From positions 1-4,384 of IMG/VR virus record IMGVR_UViG_3300022758_000081: a stretch of DNA of 4,384 bases; one strand, given 5' to 3'. Each line of letters begins with the position of its first letter. Position 1 is the first letter of the stretch. A program made the position numbers and the translations under genes. Positions 1-4,384 of this stretch are shown here, piece by piece. The DNA is from a virus (taxonomy: Duplodnaviria > Heunggongvirae > Uroviricota > Caudoviricetes). The notes below the pieces were generated by a model. The model saw only the letters and a list, made by a program, of their open reading frames with translations, searched no databases and was not told where the DNA came from.

Positions 1-1096
1 GCCGGGATTCTGGAACTCTCCGTGAAATGCAACATGGGCGATCCGGATAACGATTTCTTCGAGCTTCGTGCAGATGACCTGCGTGATGAGCGTTCTTACC
101 GTCGCCGCATCCAGGCATCCGCCGAAAAAACTGGCGAATAACATTGAGTCAGCAATTGCCAAACAGGCAACCGAAATGGGCTCACTTGTTGTTCACGATA
201 CCCGCGCAATTGGTCCATCTACTGGCCTGTCTGGCTGGGATTTTGTGTCTGATGCAGAGCGCCTGATGTTCTCCCGTGAGCTAAACCGCGATATGGGCAT
301 CAGTTACTTCCTGAACCCTGACGATTACCGCAAAGCAGGCCGCAACCTGGTAGATGGTGACATCTTTGGGCGCGTTCCTGAAGACGCGTATCGCAACGGT
401 ACTATTCAGCGTCAGATTGCTGGCTTTGATGAAATTCTTCGCTCACCGAAACTTCCGGCAGTTACCAAGTCAACCGCTACTGGTGTAACTGTTTCTGGTG
501 CGCAGAAGTTTAAGCCGCAGGCATACACTCTTGATACCGATGGTAACAAAGAGAACGTCGACAACCGTGTTGCAACTGTGACCGTATCCTCCACCACCGG
601 GTTTAAGCGCGGCGACAAAATCAGCTTCACTGGTGTGAAATTCCTGTCTCAGATGGCGAAGAACGTGCTGACTGATGATGCTACTTTCTCAATCACCCGT
701 GTGATCGATGGTACTCACATCGAAATCACGCCGAAGCCGATTGCACTGGATGACGCGTCACTGACAAAAGAAGAGAAGGCTTACGCTAACGTAAACACCT
801 CTCTTGCTGATACCACTCCGGTAAACGTTCTGAACGTGGCAACAACCACCGCTAACGTGTTCTGGGCTGATGACTCAATCCGACTGCTGTCTCAGCCTAT
901 CCCGGTAACCCATGAGCTGTTTGCTGGCATGAAAACGTCTTCCTTCAGCATTCCTGGTATTGGTGTTAACGGCATCTTCGCAACGCAGGGTGATATCAAC
1001 ACTCTGTCTGGTAAGTGCCGTATTGCTGTGTGGTATTCAGCATGTGCTGTACGACCAGAGGCAATTGGTGTTGGTCTGCCTAACCAGACTGCGTGA
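1..1096 (+). CDS. P22-like major capsid (coat) protein, gp5 family; 5'-partial and interrupted by a +1 nt frameshift
   Basis: Frame 1 from the window start translates [38 protein letters not shown], which matches the P22 coat protein as I recall it (..[33 protein letters not shown]). That frame stops at TAA 139-141. Coat homology (KKLANNIE...EMGSLV...[10 protein letters not shown]...GDKISF.GVKFL.QMAKNVL...[12 protein letters not shown]) resumes in frame 2 and runs to TGA 1094-1096. The frame switch maps to the A6 run at 125-130. The ORF-track start at GTG 68 is internal, not the real start. Confidence 0.88.
2..22. repeat. Left copy of a 21-bp perfect inverted repeat (CCGGGATTCTGGAACTCTCCG) shared with the right window terminus
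   Basis: Direct comparison: the reverse complement of 4364-4384 is identical to 2-22, and similarity stops abruptly at the inner boundary. The repeat lies inside the coat ORF (encoding GILELS). Confidence 0.85.
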
Positions 1097-1104
1097 TAAC
1101 CAGA

Positions 1105-1126
1105 GGGAGCTTCGGCTCCCTTTTCT
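1105..1126 (+). terminator. Putative intrinsic (rho-independent) terminator/attenuator downstream of the coat gene
   Basis: Perfect 6-bp GC-rich stem GGGAGC (1105-1110) / GCTCCC (1115-1120) with a TTCG tetraloop (1111-1114), followed by TTTTCT (1121-1126), starting 9 nt after the coat stop codon. Partial terminators after the highly expressed coat gene are a known feature of tailed-phage late operons. Confidence 0.6.
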
Positions 1127-1139
1127 ATTGGAGATACCA

Positions 1140-1727
1140 ATGAGCGTAATGATTTTTCAGGCTGGCGGAGATACCAAAATCTGGGGGCGCAAGCTGAAAA
1201 CGAAAACCGTTGATCCTGATGATGTAGCTGTGCACTTAGCAAATGGCTGGTATAAGCACCCTGACGATGTTCCTGATGATCCTCTTGTTGGTGATCAAAT
1301 TGGGAGTGTTGGCGGAGGTGAAACTTCCCCAGTTGATATGGGCGAAGTGTCCGACGGTTATCACACTTTTAACGAGCTTTACGCTCACCGAGTGCGCCTC
1401 TTCTCATCGCTGATGCATGCTTACGCTGAGCTTTCGTGGTGGTCTCGCAAACACAGTGACGGTGAAGAGTGGGATGGCTGGATCATTGCTGGTATCACCA
1501 CTCCAGAAGGCGAAATCACTTATCACCTACCTGTTGAAGAAATCGAGTTCCTTCCTGAAGGTACTGAGCTTGAGTTCGGGAAAGAGTGGGATGGTCATGA
1601 AGCAAATGATGTTCTTGGACGACTCCTGAGTTTGCGTCCGGCCATTGCAGAGCCAGAAGAAAAACAGCGTAAAAAGCCTGGTCGAAAACCTAAGGCGGCA
1701 GCAGATGAACCTGACAACGAAGGGTGA
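1140..1727 (+). CDS. Hypothetical acidic protein (195 aa) between the coat and gp4 genes; function unknown, possible moron
   Basis: ATG 1140-1142 preceded by GGAG at 1130-1133 (6-nt spacer); open to TGA 1725-1727. The product is visibly Asp/Glu-rich ([53 protein letters not shown]) with a short basic C-terminal tail ([11 protein letters not shown]). Its 3' end overlaps the gp4 start by 23 nt. I do not recognise the family. Confidence 0.6.
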
Positions 1728-2316
1728 TTTAGTTCTTGCGGCATTACGTAAGCTCGGTGTGGCATCAAATGCCACGTTAACCGATGTCGAACCGCAGTCT
1801 ATGGAAGACGGCGTCAACGACCTTGAAATGATGATGGCTGAATGGCTTGGCGGTGATGCGTCACCTGGGATCAACGTTGGCTACATTTTTGCTGATGCAG
1901 ATGTCGCTCCGGATCCGGGCGATGAACACGGTTTATCAAATAACGCTATCAATGCCGTTATTTTCAATCTTGCCTGCCGCATTGCTCCAGATTATGCGCT
2001 GGAAGCGTCTGCAAAACTTATAACCACTGCCAGATACGGGAAAGAGCGACTCGTCAAACTGTCTGCAATGGACAGAGCAAAAGCCGCTAAATGTAAGTCC
2101 GGTTATCCAAACCGTATGCCTGTTGGTAGCGGTAACCAGTTGGCGAAGTGGAACGGTTGGAATTACTTCCACCGAAAGAACCTTGCGATAACGGGAGCGA
2201 ATAATGCCGATTCAGCAACTTCCGCTCATGAAAGGTGTCGGCAAAGACTTCCGAAATGCCGACTATATCGACTATCTACCAGTGAATATGTTGGCTACAC
2301 CCAAAGAAATCCTTAA
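1705..2316 (+). CDS. P22 gp4-like head completion / portal-binding tail accessory factor; 3' end uncertain (possible frameshift)
   Basis: ATG 1705-1707; the N-terminal region [33 protein letters not shown]...[14 protein letters not shown] matches my recollection of P22 gp4. As read, the frame runs 112 nt into gene 10 and ends in an Arg/Cys-rich tail ([15 protein letters not shown]...) that looks like out-of-frame read-through. A TAA at 2202-2204 in the -1 frame would give a TAATG stop-start overlap with gene 10. Confidence 0.72.
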
Positions 2317-3620
2317 CAGCAGCGGATATCTTCGCTCATTCCCGGGCATTGCCAAACGCTCTGATGTAAACGGTGTATCGCGCGGAGTCGAGTACAACAT
2401 GGCGCAGAATGCTGTTTATCGCGTGTGTGGTGGGAAGCTTTACAAAGGCGAAAGCGAAGTCGGTGACGTCGCCGGAAGTGGTCGCGTATCAATGGCGCAT
2501 GGTCGGACATCTCAGGCTGTAGGTGTTAATGGTCAACTGGTCGAGTATCGCTATGATGGCACGGTTAAAACCGTCTCAAACTGGCCTACAGACAGCGGAT
2601 TCACACAGTACGAGTTAGGTTCAGTTCGCGACATTACGCGCTTACGTGGGCGTTATGCGTGGTCAAAAGACGGAACTGATTCATGGTTTATCACTGACCT
2701 TGGAGACGAATCGCACCCTGACCGATACAGTGCACAATATCGTGCCGAGTCTCAGCCTGACGGTATTATCGGCATCGGAACATGGCGAGACTTCATCGTC
2801 TGCTTTGGTTCATCGACGATTGAATATTTCTCCCTGACTGGTGCAACCACAGTTGGTGCTGCTTTGTATGTCGCACAGCCATCGCTGATGGTGCAAAAAG
2901 GCATCGCCGGGACTTACTGCAAACGCCGTTTGCTGATTCCTATGCGTTTATCAGCAATCCGGCAACAGGTGCGCCGTCTGTATACATCATCGGCTCCGGT
3001 CAGGTGTCACCAATTGCCAGCGAGAGCATTGAGAAATCCTCCGCTCCTACACTGCTGATGAACTGGCTGATGGTGTGATGGAATCGCTGCGGTTTGATGC
3101 TCATGAGTTGCTGATTATCCACCTTCCTCGCCATGTTCTCGTGTACGACGCATCTTCAAGCGCCAATGGTCCGCAATGGTGTGTACTGAAAACAGGCTTG
3201 TATGACGATGTGTACCGCGCTATCGACTTCATTTACGAAGGAAATCAGATAACGTGCGGCGATAAGCTGGAATCGGTGACCGGGAAATTGCAGTTCGATA
3301 TCAGCAGTCAGTATGGGCTTCAACAGGAACACCTGCTGTTTACTCCACTGTTCAAAGCGGATAACGCCAGATGCTTCGATCTGGAGGTGGAATCATCCAC
3401 TGGCGTAGCTCAGTACGCCGACCGCCTGTTCCTCTCTGCAACCACTGACGGCATAAATTATGGGCGTGAGCAGATGATTGAGCAGAATGAACCGTTCGTT
3501 TACGACAAACGCGTTTTGTGGAAACGAGTAGGGCGCATCAGGAAAAACATTGGTTTCAAATTGCGCGTTATCACGAAGTCACCTGTCACTCTGTCTGGCT
3601 GCCAGATAAGGATTGAGTAA
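2204..3620 (+). CDS. P22 gp10-like tail accessory factor (head completion / tail hub protein), interrupted by two -1 nt frameshifts
   Basis: ATG 2204-2206 with GGGAG at 2193-2197. [49 protein letters not shown]... closely matches P22 gp10 as I recall it. Homology runs in frame 2 to about 2920, frame 1 from 2923 to 3033 ([38 protein letters not shown]), and frame 0 from 3033 to TAA 3618-3620 ([39 protein letters not shown]...LSGCQIRIE). The ORF-track pieces 2204..3058 and 3075..3620 are fragments of this one gene. The stop overlaps the next ATG as TAATG (3618-3622). Confidence 0.88.
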
Positions 3621-3757
3621 TGGCGGATTCGAATCTCAATGTGCCGGTAATCATTCAGGCTACACGGCTAGACACATCAGTCCTTCCACGCAATATCTTC
3701 TCGCAGTACATCTGCCCGTGGCGGAATTTGCGCGCAGCGAACGATGTGACGCACTGA
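3620..3757 (+). pseudogene. Remnant of the P22 gp26-like tail needle gene: N-terminal ~30 codons only
   Basis: ATG 3620-3622 is translationally coupled to gp10. [28 protein letters not shown] matches the gp26 N-terminus as I recall it ([28 protein letters not shown]). Similarity ends at about codon 29-30 (near 3705-3712). The frame then reads unrelated sequence ([17 protein letters not shown]) to TGA 3755-3757. No frame downstream encodes the expected coiled-coil needle shaft. Confidence 0.7.
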
Positions 3758-4038
3758 ACGGTGGTGTTAGTCAGAATGTATCGCCAGAACGCCAGCCCGA
3801 TTTCCTTGCTGAAGCCGCGAATCTCTGGCAGGTACATGGCGTGGCAATCGAATGTCAGCGGCTGAATCTCCTGATAGTAAACAATGCCGCCGAACTGCCC
3901 GTGCACGTTCACCTCAAAGTAACGGCAATCAGGTTTGTAGTCGTATCCATCACCGTTGTTGCTCCCGGCGATAATGTCAGGGTGATTTCCTACTGCTTCG
4001 ATCAGGTCGATGTTTCGCGTTGGTTTGAACTGAATCAT
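3655..4038 (-). CDS. Hypothetical protein (127 aa), unknown function; convergent with the late operon
   Basis: Start ATG is the complement of 4036-4038, with GGAG about 7 nt upstream on the minus strand. It overlaps the upstream gene's TAA as TAATG. Codon choice in the sampled core (aac ggt gat tac gac aaa cgt gtg) looks like genuine enterobacterial coding sequence, whereas the in-register plus-strand ORF 3613..4095 uses rarer codons (agg, gta). The last ~17 codons are antisense to the gp26 remnant and use rare codons (agg, gga, ata), so the native C-terminus is probably lost or altered. Confidence 0.55.
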
Positions 4039-4384
4039 TACTGCTCCGCGATTATCTTGATGGTTGTGGCAGTAAACGCCGCACCATTTGACTGAATGGT
4101 TAACGTACTGCCATTTGTGGCAAGAAAGCCGTCTTTATCCACGCTGAAGAACGTAGCTAACAGGATGTTGTCGGTTGTTGTCGCCGCATTACGACTGCTG
4201 ACCAGTGTGTCAGGAACAGAGCCGGAAAAGGTTAGCTGCATTGACCTGTTTGCGGTTCCGCTGGGCCACGTCCCGACGATCGACAGCTTGAAGAACAAGG
4301 TTTTGTTCTCGTTGAACACAACCATCTTGTTGTTAACGGTGTCGAAGAATGGTGCCAACGTGCCGGAGAGTTCCAGAATCCCGG
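4038..4384 (-). CDS. Hypothetical protein, C-terminal portion only (the gene continues beyond the right edge of the window); Thr/Ser/Asn-rich, beta-type sequence
   Basis: The minus-strand frame is open from the window edge (..GILELSGTLAPFFDTVNNKMVVFNENK...GSTLTIQSNGAAFTATTIKIIAEQ) to a TAA that is the complement of 4038-4040. The TTG at 4356-4358 reported by the ORF track is not a real start. The composition resembles a fibre, adhesin or receptor-binding domain, but I recognise no family. Its first visible codons lie in the 21-nt terminal inverted repeat. Confidence 0.5.
   Translation of the reverse strand, partial: GILELSGTLAPFFDTVNNKMVVFNENKTLFFKLSIVGTWPSGTANRSMQLTFSGSVPDTLVSSRNAATTTDNILLATFFSVDKDGFLATNGSTLTIQSNGAAFTATTIKIIAEQ
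4364..4384. repeat. Right copy of the 21-bp perfect inverted repeat (reverse complement of 2-22)
   Basis: CGGAGAGTTCCAGAATCCCGG at 4364-4384 is the reverse complement of 2-22. It is read in the same frame (GILELS) by the minus-strand terminal ORF. Confidence 0.85.

What the first reader, a model, noticed from the sequence alone, without database searches (positions are those of the whole stretch)
1140..1727. Unrecognised highly acidic ORF inserted between the coat and gp4 genes of the late operon
This position is occupied by only a small ORF in P22 as I recall it. Here a 195-codon gene with a good ribosome-binding site sits immediately after the coat terminator hairpin. The product is strongly Asp/Glu-rich with internal repeat-like motifs ([25 protein letters not shown]) and a short Lys/Arg-rich C-terminal tail ([11 protein letters not shown]). 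That composition is shared with phage DNA-mimic or anti-restriction proteins and some packaged internal proteins. Expression from the late operon would suit a virion-associated or late-acting accessory (moron) function, but this is speculative.
Basis: partly seen in the sequence, partly recalled or inferred. Interest (0 to 1): 0.6.

Follow-up and report, generated by a model that had tools for sequence, protein, structure and literature searches.

The report
P22 orf69 gene carrying WDGH domain
The acidic ORF is a real, already catalogued phage gene: the small "orf69" gene that all P22-like phages keep between coat and gp4, here enlarged by a widespread phage domain of unknown function (WDGH) that is sometimes fused to known anti-immunity "sponge" domains; it does not look like a DNA mimic.

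Summary
The ORF at 1140-1727 is real and matches the description: 195 aa, GGAG 6 nt before the ATG, just after the coat hairpin, pI 4.7, net charge -18, basic tail. It is not unrecognised. Identical DNA sits in E. coli prophages, where RefSeq calls it "WDGH domain-containing protein". It matches Pfam PF25311 (E 1e-39) and PHROG 3769 (E 1e-101). Salmonella phages L, ST64T, ST104 and BTP1 carry the counterpart (Orf186, function unknown).

It is not a new gene inserted at this position. It is the resident orf69-type gene. Its first 45 residues and its Lys/Arg/Pro tail align with P22 orf69, and about 120 residues (acidic linker plus WDGH domain) lie between them. The WDGH domain is under strong purifying selection (dN/dS about 0.05) and keeps five His and four Asp almost invariant. 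It has no solved-structure relative, so nothing supports an Ocr/ArdA-type DNA mimic.

The only functional lead is indirect. WDGH is fused to the Sequestin and Tad2 signal-sponge domains in some phage proteins, and it neighbours Acb2/Tad1-like genes in two loci. My best guess, at low to moderate confidence, is an accessory counter-defence module expressed alongside the capsid. The gene is known, its function is open, and interest is modest.

The parts
1..1096 (+). 3' four-fifths of the P22-type coat (gp5) gene, stop at 1094-1096
   Evidence: 98% identical to the coat genes of phages Louie and APC_JM3.2 and collinear with E. coli prophages. One extra G at 124 shifts the frame in this window only.
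1102..1129 (+). Coat-gene hairpin (9-bp stem, UUCG loop, 1102-1123) followed by a U-rich run: an intra-operon terminator-like element
   Evidence: Fold gives -18.3 kcal/mol, z = -3.2. The same position is annotated as terminator or stem-loop in g341c, Sf6 and P22. It is discussed as an intra-operon terminator in phage L. The consensus scan did not flag it.
1130..1133 (+). Shine-Dalgarno GGAG, 6 nt before the ATG
   Evidence: Read directly from the sequence.
1140..1727 (+). The ORF: 195-aa orf69-family protein carrying a WDGH domain
   Evidence: PHROG 3769 full length, E 1.6e-101. Same CDS as RefSeq WP_162853413.1. No mismatches to L003 or L004. Overall dN/dS is 0.13-0.19.
1140..1274 (+). N-module (aa 1-45): beta-hairpin plus helix with the 'GW..HP' motif, shared with P22 orf69
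   Evidence: phrog_1175 matches residues 1-44, E 1.9e-14. It aligns with P22 orf69 and APC_JM3.2 gp22. AF2 gives strands 3-14 and 17-24 and helix 26-34, pLDDT 87-97. A profile search finds the 69-82-aa orf69-like proteins.
1275..1340 (+). Acidic, Gly-rich disordered linker (aa 46-67)
   Evidence: Net charge -5. pLDDT is below 50 for residues 50-60. This is the most variable segment, dN/dS 0.24-0.41.
1341..1634 (+). WDGH domain (aa 68-165), Pfam PF25311
   Evidence: E 1.3e-39, covering profile positions 1-97 of 97. pLDDT 90-98. dN/dS 0.05-0.06. About 40 of 98 positions are at least 80% conserved in 250 cluster representatives.
1635..1727 (+). Tail (aa 166-195): AEPEE, then the Lys/Arg/Pro-rich [12 protein letters not shown] (AT-hook-like), then an acidic end; it overlaps the gp4 start
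   Evidence: Identical tail in the short alleles of APC_JM3.2 and Louie, and similar in P22 orf69. Some orthologues carry a canonical RGRP core. pLDDT 61-69.
1135..1647 (+). Allelic cassette: the only stretch of 2-3700 that does not align to the closest E. coli phages, which carry a short orf69-type allele here
   Evidence: blastn of the window against L001 and L002 aligns 2-1134 and 1648-3715 only. GC is 0.49, the same as the flanks.
1705..2205 (+). gp4 (head-tail adaptor) gene: its ATG lies 23 nt inside the ORF's 3' end and its SD (AAGGCGG) lies within the tail codons
   Evidence: RefSeq gp4 CDS mapped onto the window. In this window its 3' end is frameshifted by 1-nt deletions near 2173 and 2202.

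Best explanation
The explanation has three layers, each with its own confidence.

(1) Shown, about 0.9. The ORF is the resident orf69-type gene that every P22-like phage keeps between the coat hairpin and gene 4. It has a 45-residue N-module and a Lys/Arg/Pro-rich, AT-hook-like tail. In this allele they are separated by an acidic linker plus a WDGH domain (PF25311), not by a short acidic spacer. The whole 5' part of the gene (1135-1647) swaps as an allele between otherwise near-identical phages.

(2) Inferred, about 0.7. The gene is transcribed from the late operon by read-through of the coat hairpin, since no promoter-like site lies nearby. It is translated from its own GGAG. Its stop lies 23 nt past the gp4 start, so gp4 translation is probably coupled to it. 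The gene is dispensable for virion assembly.

(3) Inferred, about 0.35-0.4. The WDGH domain is an accessory counter-defence module. Most likely it binds or hydrolyses a nucleotide-derived molecule such as a Thoeris or CBASS signal. It would be made together with the capsid, at the time structural proteins trigger such systems. The near-invariant His/Asp/Arg/Trp set would form the ligand, metal or catalytic site. The basic tail may tether the protein to nucleic acid.
For: Architecture:
- The alignment with P22 orf69, Sf6 gp6, APC_JM3.2 gp22 and Louie shows the shared N-module and tail with the insertion between them.
- phrog_1175 matches residues 1-44 and PF25311 matches residues 68-165.
- The N-module profile retrieves the 69-82-aa orf69-like proteins.
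- The DNA swap boundaries are 1134/1135 and 1647/1648.

Accessory nature:
- The domain is absent from P22, Sf6, Louie and IME10.
- It is present in 42 of 217 E. coli genomes that match this junction.
- The phage L paper describes orf186 as interrupting synteny, function unknown.

Functional constraint:
- dN/dS on the domain is 0.05-0.06.
- S71, D72, H75, T76, E79, Y81, H83, R84, W100, H105, D107, Y128, H129, W150, D151, H153 and R161 are at least 95% conserved across 250 representatives.
- The family has 4,565 clusters at 50% identity. They span phages of Listeria, Bacillus, Streptococcus, Klebsiella, cyanobacteria and actinobacteria.

Counter-defence lead:
- WDGH is fused to Sequestin (PF21825) in 7 of 60 multidomain representatives and to Tad2-like (PF11195) in 1.
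- P0101 has the order Tad2-like, WDGH, Sequestin.
- Sequestin itself was discovered as a 3'cADPR sponge through its fusions to Tad2 and Acb4.
- In L019 the WDGH gene is followed directly by an Acb2/Tad1-hairpin gene and lies 3 kb from a Tad2-Sequestin gene.
- In L012 an Acb2/Tad1-hairpin gene lies three genes upstream.

Timing rationale: capsid-vertex and tail-fibre proteins determine Thoeris sensing in recent work.
Against: - There is no experimental datum on any WDGH protein. Literature searches for 'WDGH' and for the motif SDGYHTF found nothing, and the Sequestin paper's supplements do not contain it.
- The fusions are a minority, 8 of about 250 representatives.
- In a wider sample of 27 diverse loci, only 3 sponge-type domains appeared among 247 neighbouring ORFs plus the 25 WDGH genes themselves. 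The commonest neighbour was a DnaB-like helicase. The distal control of 150 ORFs showed none among the 25 families listed, so the enrichment is not significant.
- The very high sequence conservation is unlike known sponges, which diverge strongly, and fits an enzyme better.
- The domain is acidic overall, mean net charge -7, whereas the sponge-prediction pipeline looked for positively charged pockets.
- Oligomeric state and pocket geometry could not be examined.
- Anti-defence genes are usually early genes, and this one is late.
Confidence: 0.4

Rival explanations
1. The WDGH domain is a small enzyme or cofactor of phage nucleotide or DNA metabolism, for example acting on nucleotides, modified bases or replication intermediates, with no role in immunity. 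In P22-like phages it is simply carried in a permissive late-operon slot.
For: Five His, four Asp, one Glu and two Arg are nearly invariant, and about 40% of positions are conserved, which is typical of a catalytic site. In about 6 metagenomic phage loci the gene follows a DnaB-like helicase. Other neighbours include dUTPase, dCMP deaminase, dGTP diphosphohydrolase, ligase, RuvC and DNA methylases. One fusion partner hits a PHROG named nucleotide pyrophosphohydrolase.
Confidence: 0.2
2. The protein is a virion-associated or assembly accessory protein, for example bound to packaged DNA or the portal vertex through its basic tail. On this view the orf69 family is structural and WDGH is a passenger delivered into the next host.
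For: An orf69-type gene is conserved between coat and the head-completion genes in all P22-likes examined. Its stop overlaps the gp4 start. The tail is AT-hook-like, with RGRP cores in some orthologues. A WDGH gene lies between the portal and minor head genes in Streptococcus phage phiARI0468-4. Phage L virion preparations contained nine further unnamed phage proteins.
Against: The phage L paper lists the virion components (gp1, 5, 4, 10, 26, 14, 7, 20, 16, 9, Dec, gp8 and small terminase) without Orf186 and calls its function unknown. Most WDGH genes lie outside structural modules. From my own knowledge, not tested here, no orf69 or gp6 product is known in P22 or Sf6 virions.
Confidence: 0.12
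3. This is the first reader's idea: an acidic DNA-mimic anti-restriction protein of the Ocr/ArdA type that blocks restriction-modification or other DNA-binding defence enzymes.
For: Net charge is -18 and pI 4.7, and the WDGH domain is acidic family-wide, with mean net charge -7 and 77% of members at or below -5. The gene has an accessory, patchy distribution.
Confidence: 0.04
4. The protein product is unimportant. The ORF only serves to carry ribosomes across the coat hairpin to the gp4 start by translational coupling, and the WDGH segment is a neutral passenger.
For: The ORF overlaps the gp4 start by 23 nt, and the gp4 SD lies in its tail codons. Short and long alleles are interchangeable.
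Against: dN/dS of 0.05-0.06 on the WDGH segment and 0.15-0.29 on the N-module shows selection on the proteins themselves. The domain is conserved across phyla and in unrelated genomic contexts.
Confidence: 0.03

Closest known systems
Orf186 of Salmonella phage L, with ST64T, ST104 ORF54, g341c gp6 and the BTP1 homologue
   Same: Same position between the coat terminator and gene 4. Same three-part architecture of N-module, WDGH domain and basic tail. About 62% amino-acid identity over residues 1-167. PHROG 3769.
   Different: This is the E. coli lineage allele, with a longer and more acidic linker, a more acidic domain (net charge -14) and a different tail end (…[10 protein letters not shown]). 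Its function is equally unknown ('detailed function unknown').
P22 orf69, with Sf6 gene 6, HK620 hkbT and APC_JM3.2 gp22 (phrog_1175)
   Same: Same locus, same N-module (MxxMxYKxGG…GWxxHP), same Lys/Arg/Pro tail and same overlap with gene 4.
   Different: These proteins are 61-88 aa, with only a short acidic or (EP)n spacer where the window's protein has the linker plus the 98-residue WDGH domain.
Pfam PF25311 WDGH domain family, stand-alone and multidomain phage proteins
   Same: Full-length domain match at 134.8 bits, with all signature residues present.
   Different: Most members are 110-160-aa stand-alone proteins in early or accessory gene arrays. The orf69 N-module and tail context is specific to enterobacterial P22-like phages.
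Phage immune-signal sponges Tad2 (PF11195), Sequestin (PF21825) and Acb2/Tad1
   Same: A small phage-specific domain of about 100 aa, widespread across phage types. It is physically fused to Tad2-like and Sequestin domains in some proteins and adjacent to Acb2/Tad1-like genes in two loci. This is the same fusion logic that uncovered Sequestin.
   Different: No sequence or fold relationship to any of them. WDGH is much more conserved in sequence and rich in His and Asp, so it looks more like an enzyme. It is acidic overall. Its oligomeric state and ligand binding are untested.
Ocr (T7 gp0.3) and ArdA DNA mimics
   Same: Acidic phage accessory protein.
   Different: No structural similarity, no carboxylate arrays among the conserved residues, late rather than immediate-early expression, and moderate acidity (pI 4.7).

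Membership tests
Pfam PF25311 (WDGH domain) | HMM score above the gathering cut-off (27 bits) over the whole model | tested here: met
   134.8 bits, E 1.3e-39, residues 68-165 against profile positions 1-97 of 97.
Pfam PF25311 (WDGH domain) | Signature residues SDGYHTF…YxHR…HxDG…YHLP…WDGH…DV..R | tested here: met
   All are present in the window protein. Each is at least 88% conserved in 250 representatives.
PHROG 3769 (Orf186-type long allele) | Full-length profile match | tested here: met
   E 1.6e-101, residues 1-193 against profile positions 1-186 of 186.
P22 orf69 family (phrog_1175) | N-terminal module homologous to orf69 | tested here: met
   phrog_1175 matches residues 1-44, E 1.9e-14. 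A profile of the N-modules retrieves the Salmonella and Serratia orf69 proteins at E about 1e-17. Alignment.
P22 orf69 family (phrog_1175) | Position between the coat hairpin and gene 4, with the 3' end overlapping the gene 4 start, and the shared basic tail | tested here: met
   Window 1102-1123 hairpin, ORF 1140-1727, gp4 ATG at 1705. P22 orf69 is at 6135-6344 against gene 4 at 6328. Tail alignment.
Ocr/ArdA-type DNA mimics | Fold resembling Ocr or ArdA, or another solved DNA mimic | tested here: not met
Ocr/ArdA-type DNA mimics | Very high negative charge carried by conserved surface carboxylates spaced like DNA phosphates | tested here: inconclusive
   Net charge -18 and pI 4.72. The conserved residues are mainly His, Trp, Tyr, Arg and Gly with 4 Asp and 1 Glu. 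Surface geometry could not be inspected because no coordinates are returned.
Ocr/ArdA-type DNA mimics | Binding and inhibition of restriction or other DNA-binding enzymes | not testable with these tools
   Needs biochemistry or plating assays.
Nucleotide-signal sponges (Tad1, Tad2, Acb2, Acb4, Sequestin, Lockin) | Sequence or fold membership in one of the described sponge families | tested here: not met
   Pfam reports only PF25311. There are no PDB sequence or structure hits, although structures of these sponges are described in the literature. The motif is absent from the supplements of the Sequestin/Lockin paper.
Nucleotide-signal sponges (Tad1, Tad2, Acb2, Acb4, Sequestin, Lockin) | Occurs fused to, or next to, known sponge domains (the criterion used to find Sequestin) | tested here: met
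   Fused to Sequestin in 7 of 60 and Tad2-like in 1 of 60 multidomain representatives. P0101 is Tad2-WDGH-Sequestin. Neighbouring Acb2/Tad1-hairpin genes occur in L019 and L012. The neighbourhood enrichment in 27 loci is not significant.
Nucleotide-signal sponges (Tad1, Tad2, Acb2, Acb4, Sequestin, Lockin) | Homo-oligomer with ligand pockets at the protomer interfaces, and sequestration of the signal | not testable with these tools
   Only single-chain prediction is available and no coordinates are returned. Needs AF-Multimer or AF3 plus binding assays.
AT-hook DNA-binding motif | Core R-G-R-P flanked by Lys/Arg | tested here: not met
   The window has KKPGRKPKA, with a G-R core but not RGRP. 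Orthologues P0033, P0043 and L063 have KKRGRP(T/A)KV. The motif is therefore AT-hook-like only.

The most novel reading that the evidence does not exclude
WDGH (PF25311) is a new and very widespread family of phage counter-defence domains, with about 4,500 clusters at 50% identity. It would bind, or more likely hydrolyse given its invariant His/Asp set, a nucleotide-derived immune signal. The fusion-based screen that found Sequestin missed it. In P22-like phages it has been spliced into the orf69 late gene, so it is produced together with the capsid proteins that trigger signalling defences.
Probability: 0.25. Interest if true: 0.7.

Novelty: already known. Interest (0 to 1): 0.3.

Why it matters
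As a sequence feature this is ordinary. It is an annotated accessory gene at a mosaic joint of P22-like genomes that was already noted in the literature. Two things add some value.

First, the 'extra gene' of phage L and ST64T-type phages is shown to be the universal orf69-type gene with a domain spliced between its two conserved ends. That explains how the slot varies without disturbing gp4 expression.

Second, the fusions of the WDGH domain to the Tad2 and Sequestin sponges give a concrete and cheap hypothesis to test for a large family of unknown function. That family is also present in Listeria, Bacillus, Streptococcus and Klebsiella phages, including groups used in therapy or biocontrol. 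If the hypothesis is confirmed, it would add another family to the phage anti-signalling repertoire.

Tried and rejected
- NCBIfam and PADLOC scans gave no hits.
- The PDB sequence search found only noise, E at least 0.5.
- The afdb50 library was unavailable.
- Literature searches for 'WDGH', 'SDGYHTF', 'orf186' and 'orf69 P22' yielded only the phage L genome paper, which says function unknown. The other hits were unrelated.
- The supplements of the Sequestin paper do not contain the motif.
- The phage L virion protein table is not held, and the Casjens and Thuman-Commike 2011 review is not held.
- The Sequestin-type domain of P0077 has no PDB sequence relative.
- The internal-repeat idea (EEWDGW against KEWDGH, and PDDV twice) is rejected, because the first copy of each is not conserved among homologues.
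- Recent foreign origin judged from base composition is rejected. The cassette GC of 0.49 equals that of the flanks.
- A private promoter, as in a classic moron, is rejected. No sigma-70-like site lies in 900-1900, and only 43 nt separate coat from the ORF.
- The neighbourhood enrichment test for sponge genes around WDGH genes was inconclusive. It used 27 de-duplicated IMG/VR loci. It compared 247 neighbouring ORFs plus the 25 WDGH genes with 150 distal ORFs. The result was 3 hits against 0 visible, and only the top 25 families are listed.
- The search for other cargo domains inside orf69-type genes found only short forms among the 120 best hits.
- PHROG scans of the fusion partners returned families with no assigned function, apart from one named nucleotide pyrophosphohydrolase.

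Full report
**Observation**

The window is a P22-like late-operon segment. It contains the 3' part of coat, the ORF in question, gp4, gp10 and the start of gp26. The ORF runs from the ATG at 1140 to the TGA at 1725-1727, which is 195 codons.

GGAG at 1130-1133 lies 6 nt upstream of the ATG. A 9-bp UUCG hairpin with a U-rich tail lies at 1102-1129, directly after the coat stop at 1096. Its fold energy is -18.3 kcal/mol, z = -3.2. The records of g341c, Sf6 and P22 annotate a terminator or stem-loop at the same place. The simple terminator scan did not flag it, and no promoter-like site lies in 900-1900.

The protein has 38 Asp+Glu (19.5%), net charge -18 and pI 4.72. Residues 166-183 have pI 10.4.

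The ORF is a real gene. It has no mismatches to two complete E. coli chromosomes, one of which annotates the same 588-nt CDS as 'WDGH domain-containing protein' WP_162853413.1. Codon-level comparison with diverged alleles gives dN/dS of 0.13-0.19 overall and 0.05-0.06 for residues 68-165.

**What it is**

Residues 68-165 match Pfam PF25311 'WDGH domain' end to end (E 1.3e-39, 134.8 bits against a cut-off of 27). The whole protein matches PHROG 3769 (E 1.6e-101), and residues 1-44 also match phrog_1175, a 72-aa family.

tblastn finds the full-length protein, at about 62% identity, at the coat-gp4 junction of Salmonella phages L (Orf186), ST64T, ST104 (ORF54), g341c, Emek and BTP1. The domain alone, at 27-75% identity, occurs in phages of Klebsiella, Serratia, Bacillus, Listeria, Streptococcus, Staphylococcus, Lactococcus, Arthrobacter, Actinoplanes and a cyanobacterium. 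The phage L genome paper describes orf186 as interrupting the synteny of the head genes, 'detailed function unknown'.

**Architecture: the main new point**

The closest sequenced E. coli phages (Louie, APC_JM3.2, Dewey, IME10; 95-96% identity) align to the window at 2-1134 and 1648-3715. Only 1135-1647 is replaced. What they have there is a short ORF of 82-88 aa, not nothing. That short ORF begins with a related N-module and ends with the identical tail [15 protein letters not shown](A/S)DEPDNEG. The two ends are joined by an (EP)n spacer.

P22 orf69 (69 aa, 6135-6344, overlapping gene 4 at 6328) and, more distantly, Sf6 gene 6 have the same layout. A profile of the N-modules retrieves several hundred orf69-like proteins from enterobacterial prophages, most of them 69-82 aa and the shorter ones largely partial records.

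So the window's ORF is the orf69-type gene with about 120 residues placed between its two conserved ends. Those residues are an acidic disordered linker (aa 46-67) plus the WDGH domain. The long allele is old, because it is shared with Salmonella, Pantoea, Serratia, Erwinia and Xenorhabdus prophages. It is itself mosaic: L034 has a 92%-identical domain behind a different N-module. The cassette's GC (0.49) equals that of its flanks. In complete E. coli genomes, 42 of the 217 that match this junction carry the long allele.

**Structure**

An AF2 model built on 69 homologues has mean pLDDT 86.
- N-module: beta-hairpin 3-24 plus helix 26-34, pLDDT 87-97.
- Linker: residues 50-60 below pLDDT 50.
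- WDGH domain: long helix 77-94, three strands (99-102, 114-121, 124-131) and helices 132-137 and 155-163, pLDDT 90-98.
- Tail: disordered.

Across 250 representatives, S71, D72, G73, H75, T76, F77, E79, L80, Y81, H83, R84, W100, H105, D107, Y128, H129, W150, D151, G152, H153 and R161 are at least 95% conserved. The domain is acidic family-wide, with mean net charge -7.2, and the window's -14 is near the extreme. The apparent repeats EEWDGW/KEWDGH and PDDV are not conserved as repeats.

**Function: what can be inferred**

A full HMM search finds 4,565 clusters (50% identity) with the domain. Most members are stand-alone proteins of 110-160 aa.

Among 60 multidomain representatives, 7 carry PF21825, 1 carries PF11195 (Tad2-like) and 1 carries DUF551. 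The rest of the partner sequence has no Pfam match, and its PHROG matches have no assigned function apart from one named nucleotide pyrophosphohydrolase. PF21825 is Sequestin, a 3'cADPR sponge that inhibits type I Thoeris. It was discovered precisely because it is fused to Tad2 and Acb4. Tad2 (DUF2829) sequesters gcADPR. P0101 has the order Tad2-like, WDGH, Sequestin, and lies between the lysis genes and the portal gene of a P22-like prophage.

In L019 the WDGH gene is followed immediately by an Acb2/Tad1-hairpin gene, and a Tad2-Sequestin gene lies 3 kb upstream. In L012 an Acb2/Tad1-hairpin gene lies three genes upstream.

A broader test was weaker. It used 27 de-duplicated IMG/VR loci. Among 247 ORFs within 3 kb plus the 25 WDGH genes themselves, there was one hit each to Acb2/Tad1-hairpin, Tad2-like and Sequestin. 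The commonest neighbour was a DnaB-like helicase (6-7 loci). 150 ORFs more than 5 kb away showed none of these among the 25 families listed. This points the same way but is not significant.

In annotated phages the gene lies in arrays of small unknown ORFs (Listeria LP-125, Klebsiella SopranoGao) or between the portal and minor head genes (Streptococcus phiARI0468-4).

**Best explanation**

With high confidence, this is a dispensable long allele of the orf69-type late gene. It is transcribed by read-through of the coat hairpin and translated from its own SD. It ends 23 nt inside gp4, whose SD lies in the tail codons, so gp4 translation is probably coupled to it.

With low to moderate confidence (about 0.35-0.4), the WDGH domain is a counter-defence module acting on a nucleotide-derived molecule. 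The invariant His/Asp set and the unusually high conservation suggest an enzyme or metal site more than a classic sponge. Late co-expression with the capsid would make sense, because capsid-vertex and tail-fibre proteins determine Thoeris sensing in recent studies.

The basic tail is only AT-hook-like: PGRKP here, canonical RGRP in some orthologues. Its role is unknown.

The rivals are a nucleotide or DNA-metabolism enzyme unrelated to immunity (0.2), a virion or assembly accessory (0.12), a DNA mimic (0.04), and a mere coupling spacer (0.03, contradicted by dN/dS).

**Comparison with the known, and novelty**

The gene belongs to catalogued families (PF25311, PHROG 3769, the phrog_1175 N-module). 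It is annotated in RefSeq on identical DNA and was described, without function, in phage L. It fails the testable membership criteria for DNA mimics and for every described sponge family. It meets only the 'fused to known sponges' criterion.

Searches of the held literature for the name and the motif found no functional study. I therefore rate it 'already known' as a feature, with a modest open lead on function.

**Window quality**

Relative to near-identical complete prophages, the window has five 1-nt homopolymer indels.
- An extra G at 124.
- Missing bases near 2173 and 2202.
- Missing bases near 2920 and 3033.

These indels frameshift coat, gp4 and gp10.

From 3702 to 4367 the window is a reverse-complement copy of the gp14 5' end and the gp26 3' end, joined at a 6-7-nt microhomology. 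The last 21 nt are the reverse complement of nt 2-22. This looks like an error-prone, fold-back chimeric assembly. It does not touch the ORF under study.

Noticed in passing
window 124, ~2173, ~2202, ~2920, ~3033: There are five single-base homopolymer indels relative to near-identical complete E. coli prophages (L003, L004). They frameshift coat, the 3' end of gp4, and gp10, which ORF listing splits into 2204-3058 and 3075-3620. The cause is probably sequencing or assembly error, or else a decaying prophage. The ORF at 1140-1727 is untouched.
   Followed up: yes
window 3702-4367: This stretch is a reverse-complement copy of the 5' part of gp14 (DUF2824) and the 3' knob part of gp26. It is joined to gp26 codon ~29 at a 6-7-nt microhomology (CGCAGT). 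The reference prophages are collinear here, so this is an inversion or a fold-back chimera.
   Followed up: partly
window 2-22 and 4364-4384: The last 21 nt of the window are the exact reverse complement of its start, which lies inside the coat gene. This 21-mer occurs only once in the reference prophages. It suggests an assembly-graph or fold-back artefact.
   Followed up: partly
window 1648-1665 and the homologous sites in L002, L001, L020, L033, L071: The GAGCCA/(Glu-Pro)n tract just upstream of the basic tail varies in length between alleles. It reads AEPEE here, AEPEPEE in L020, EPEPEPEE in L033 and (EP)8 in APC_JM3.2, where it is annotated as a repeat_region. The tract is slippage-prone and sits at the right-hand recombination joint of the cassette.
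   Followed up: partly
L003 9317-9631 versus L004 9044-9631: RefSeq annotates identical DNA inconsistently. In strain EC21Z-014 it is a full 588-nt 'WDGH domain-containing protein'. In strain PapM-32-1 it is only a 315-nt 'hypothetical protein' that starts inside the domain.
   Followed up: yes
L034 (IMG/VR UViG_2636415690_000005) around 8001-8294: The WDGH domain is 92% identical to the window's, but it sits behind a clearly different N-module (MSQIMLYKLGSMITCGPHSLDYII…). This shows a mosaic joint inside the gene, between the N-module and the domain.
   Followed up: partly
L019 3031-4122 and 7001-7846: This is an apparent anti-defence gene cluster in a prophage-like contig. It holds a 363-aa Tad2-like plus Sequestin fusion gene, then a WDGH gene followed directly by an Acb2/Tad1-hairpin gene.
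   Followed up: partly
L074, L076, L081, L084, L097 (IMG/VR metagenomic phages), just upstream of the WDGH gene: In one clade of metagenomic phages the stand-alone WDGH gene follows a DnaB-like helicase gene and is followed by glycosyltransferase or sugar-nucleotide genes. This context differs from the P22-like one and does not obviously relate to defence.
   Followed up: no
L001 710-1237 (phage Louie): An HNH endonuclease gene lies on the opposite strand between the scaffolding and coat genes of phage Louie. It is absent from APC_JM3.2 and the E. coli prophages. It is another mobile insertion in the same head-gene block.
   Followed up: no
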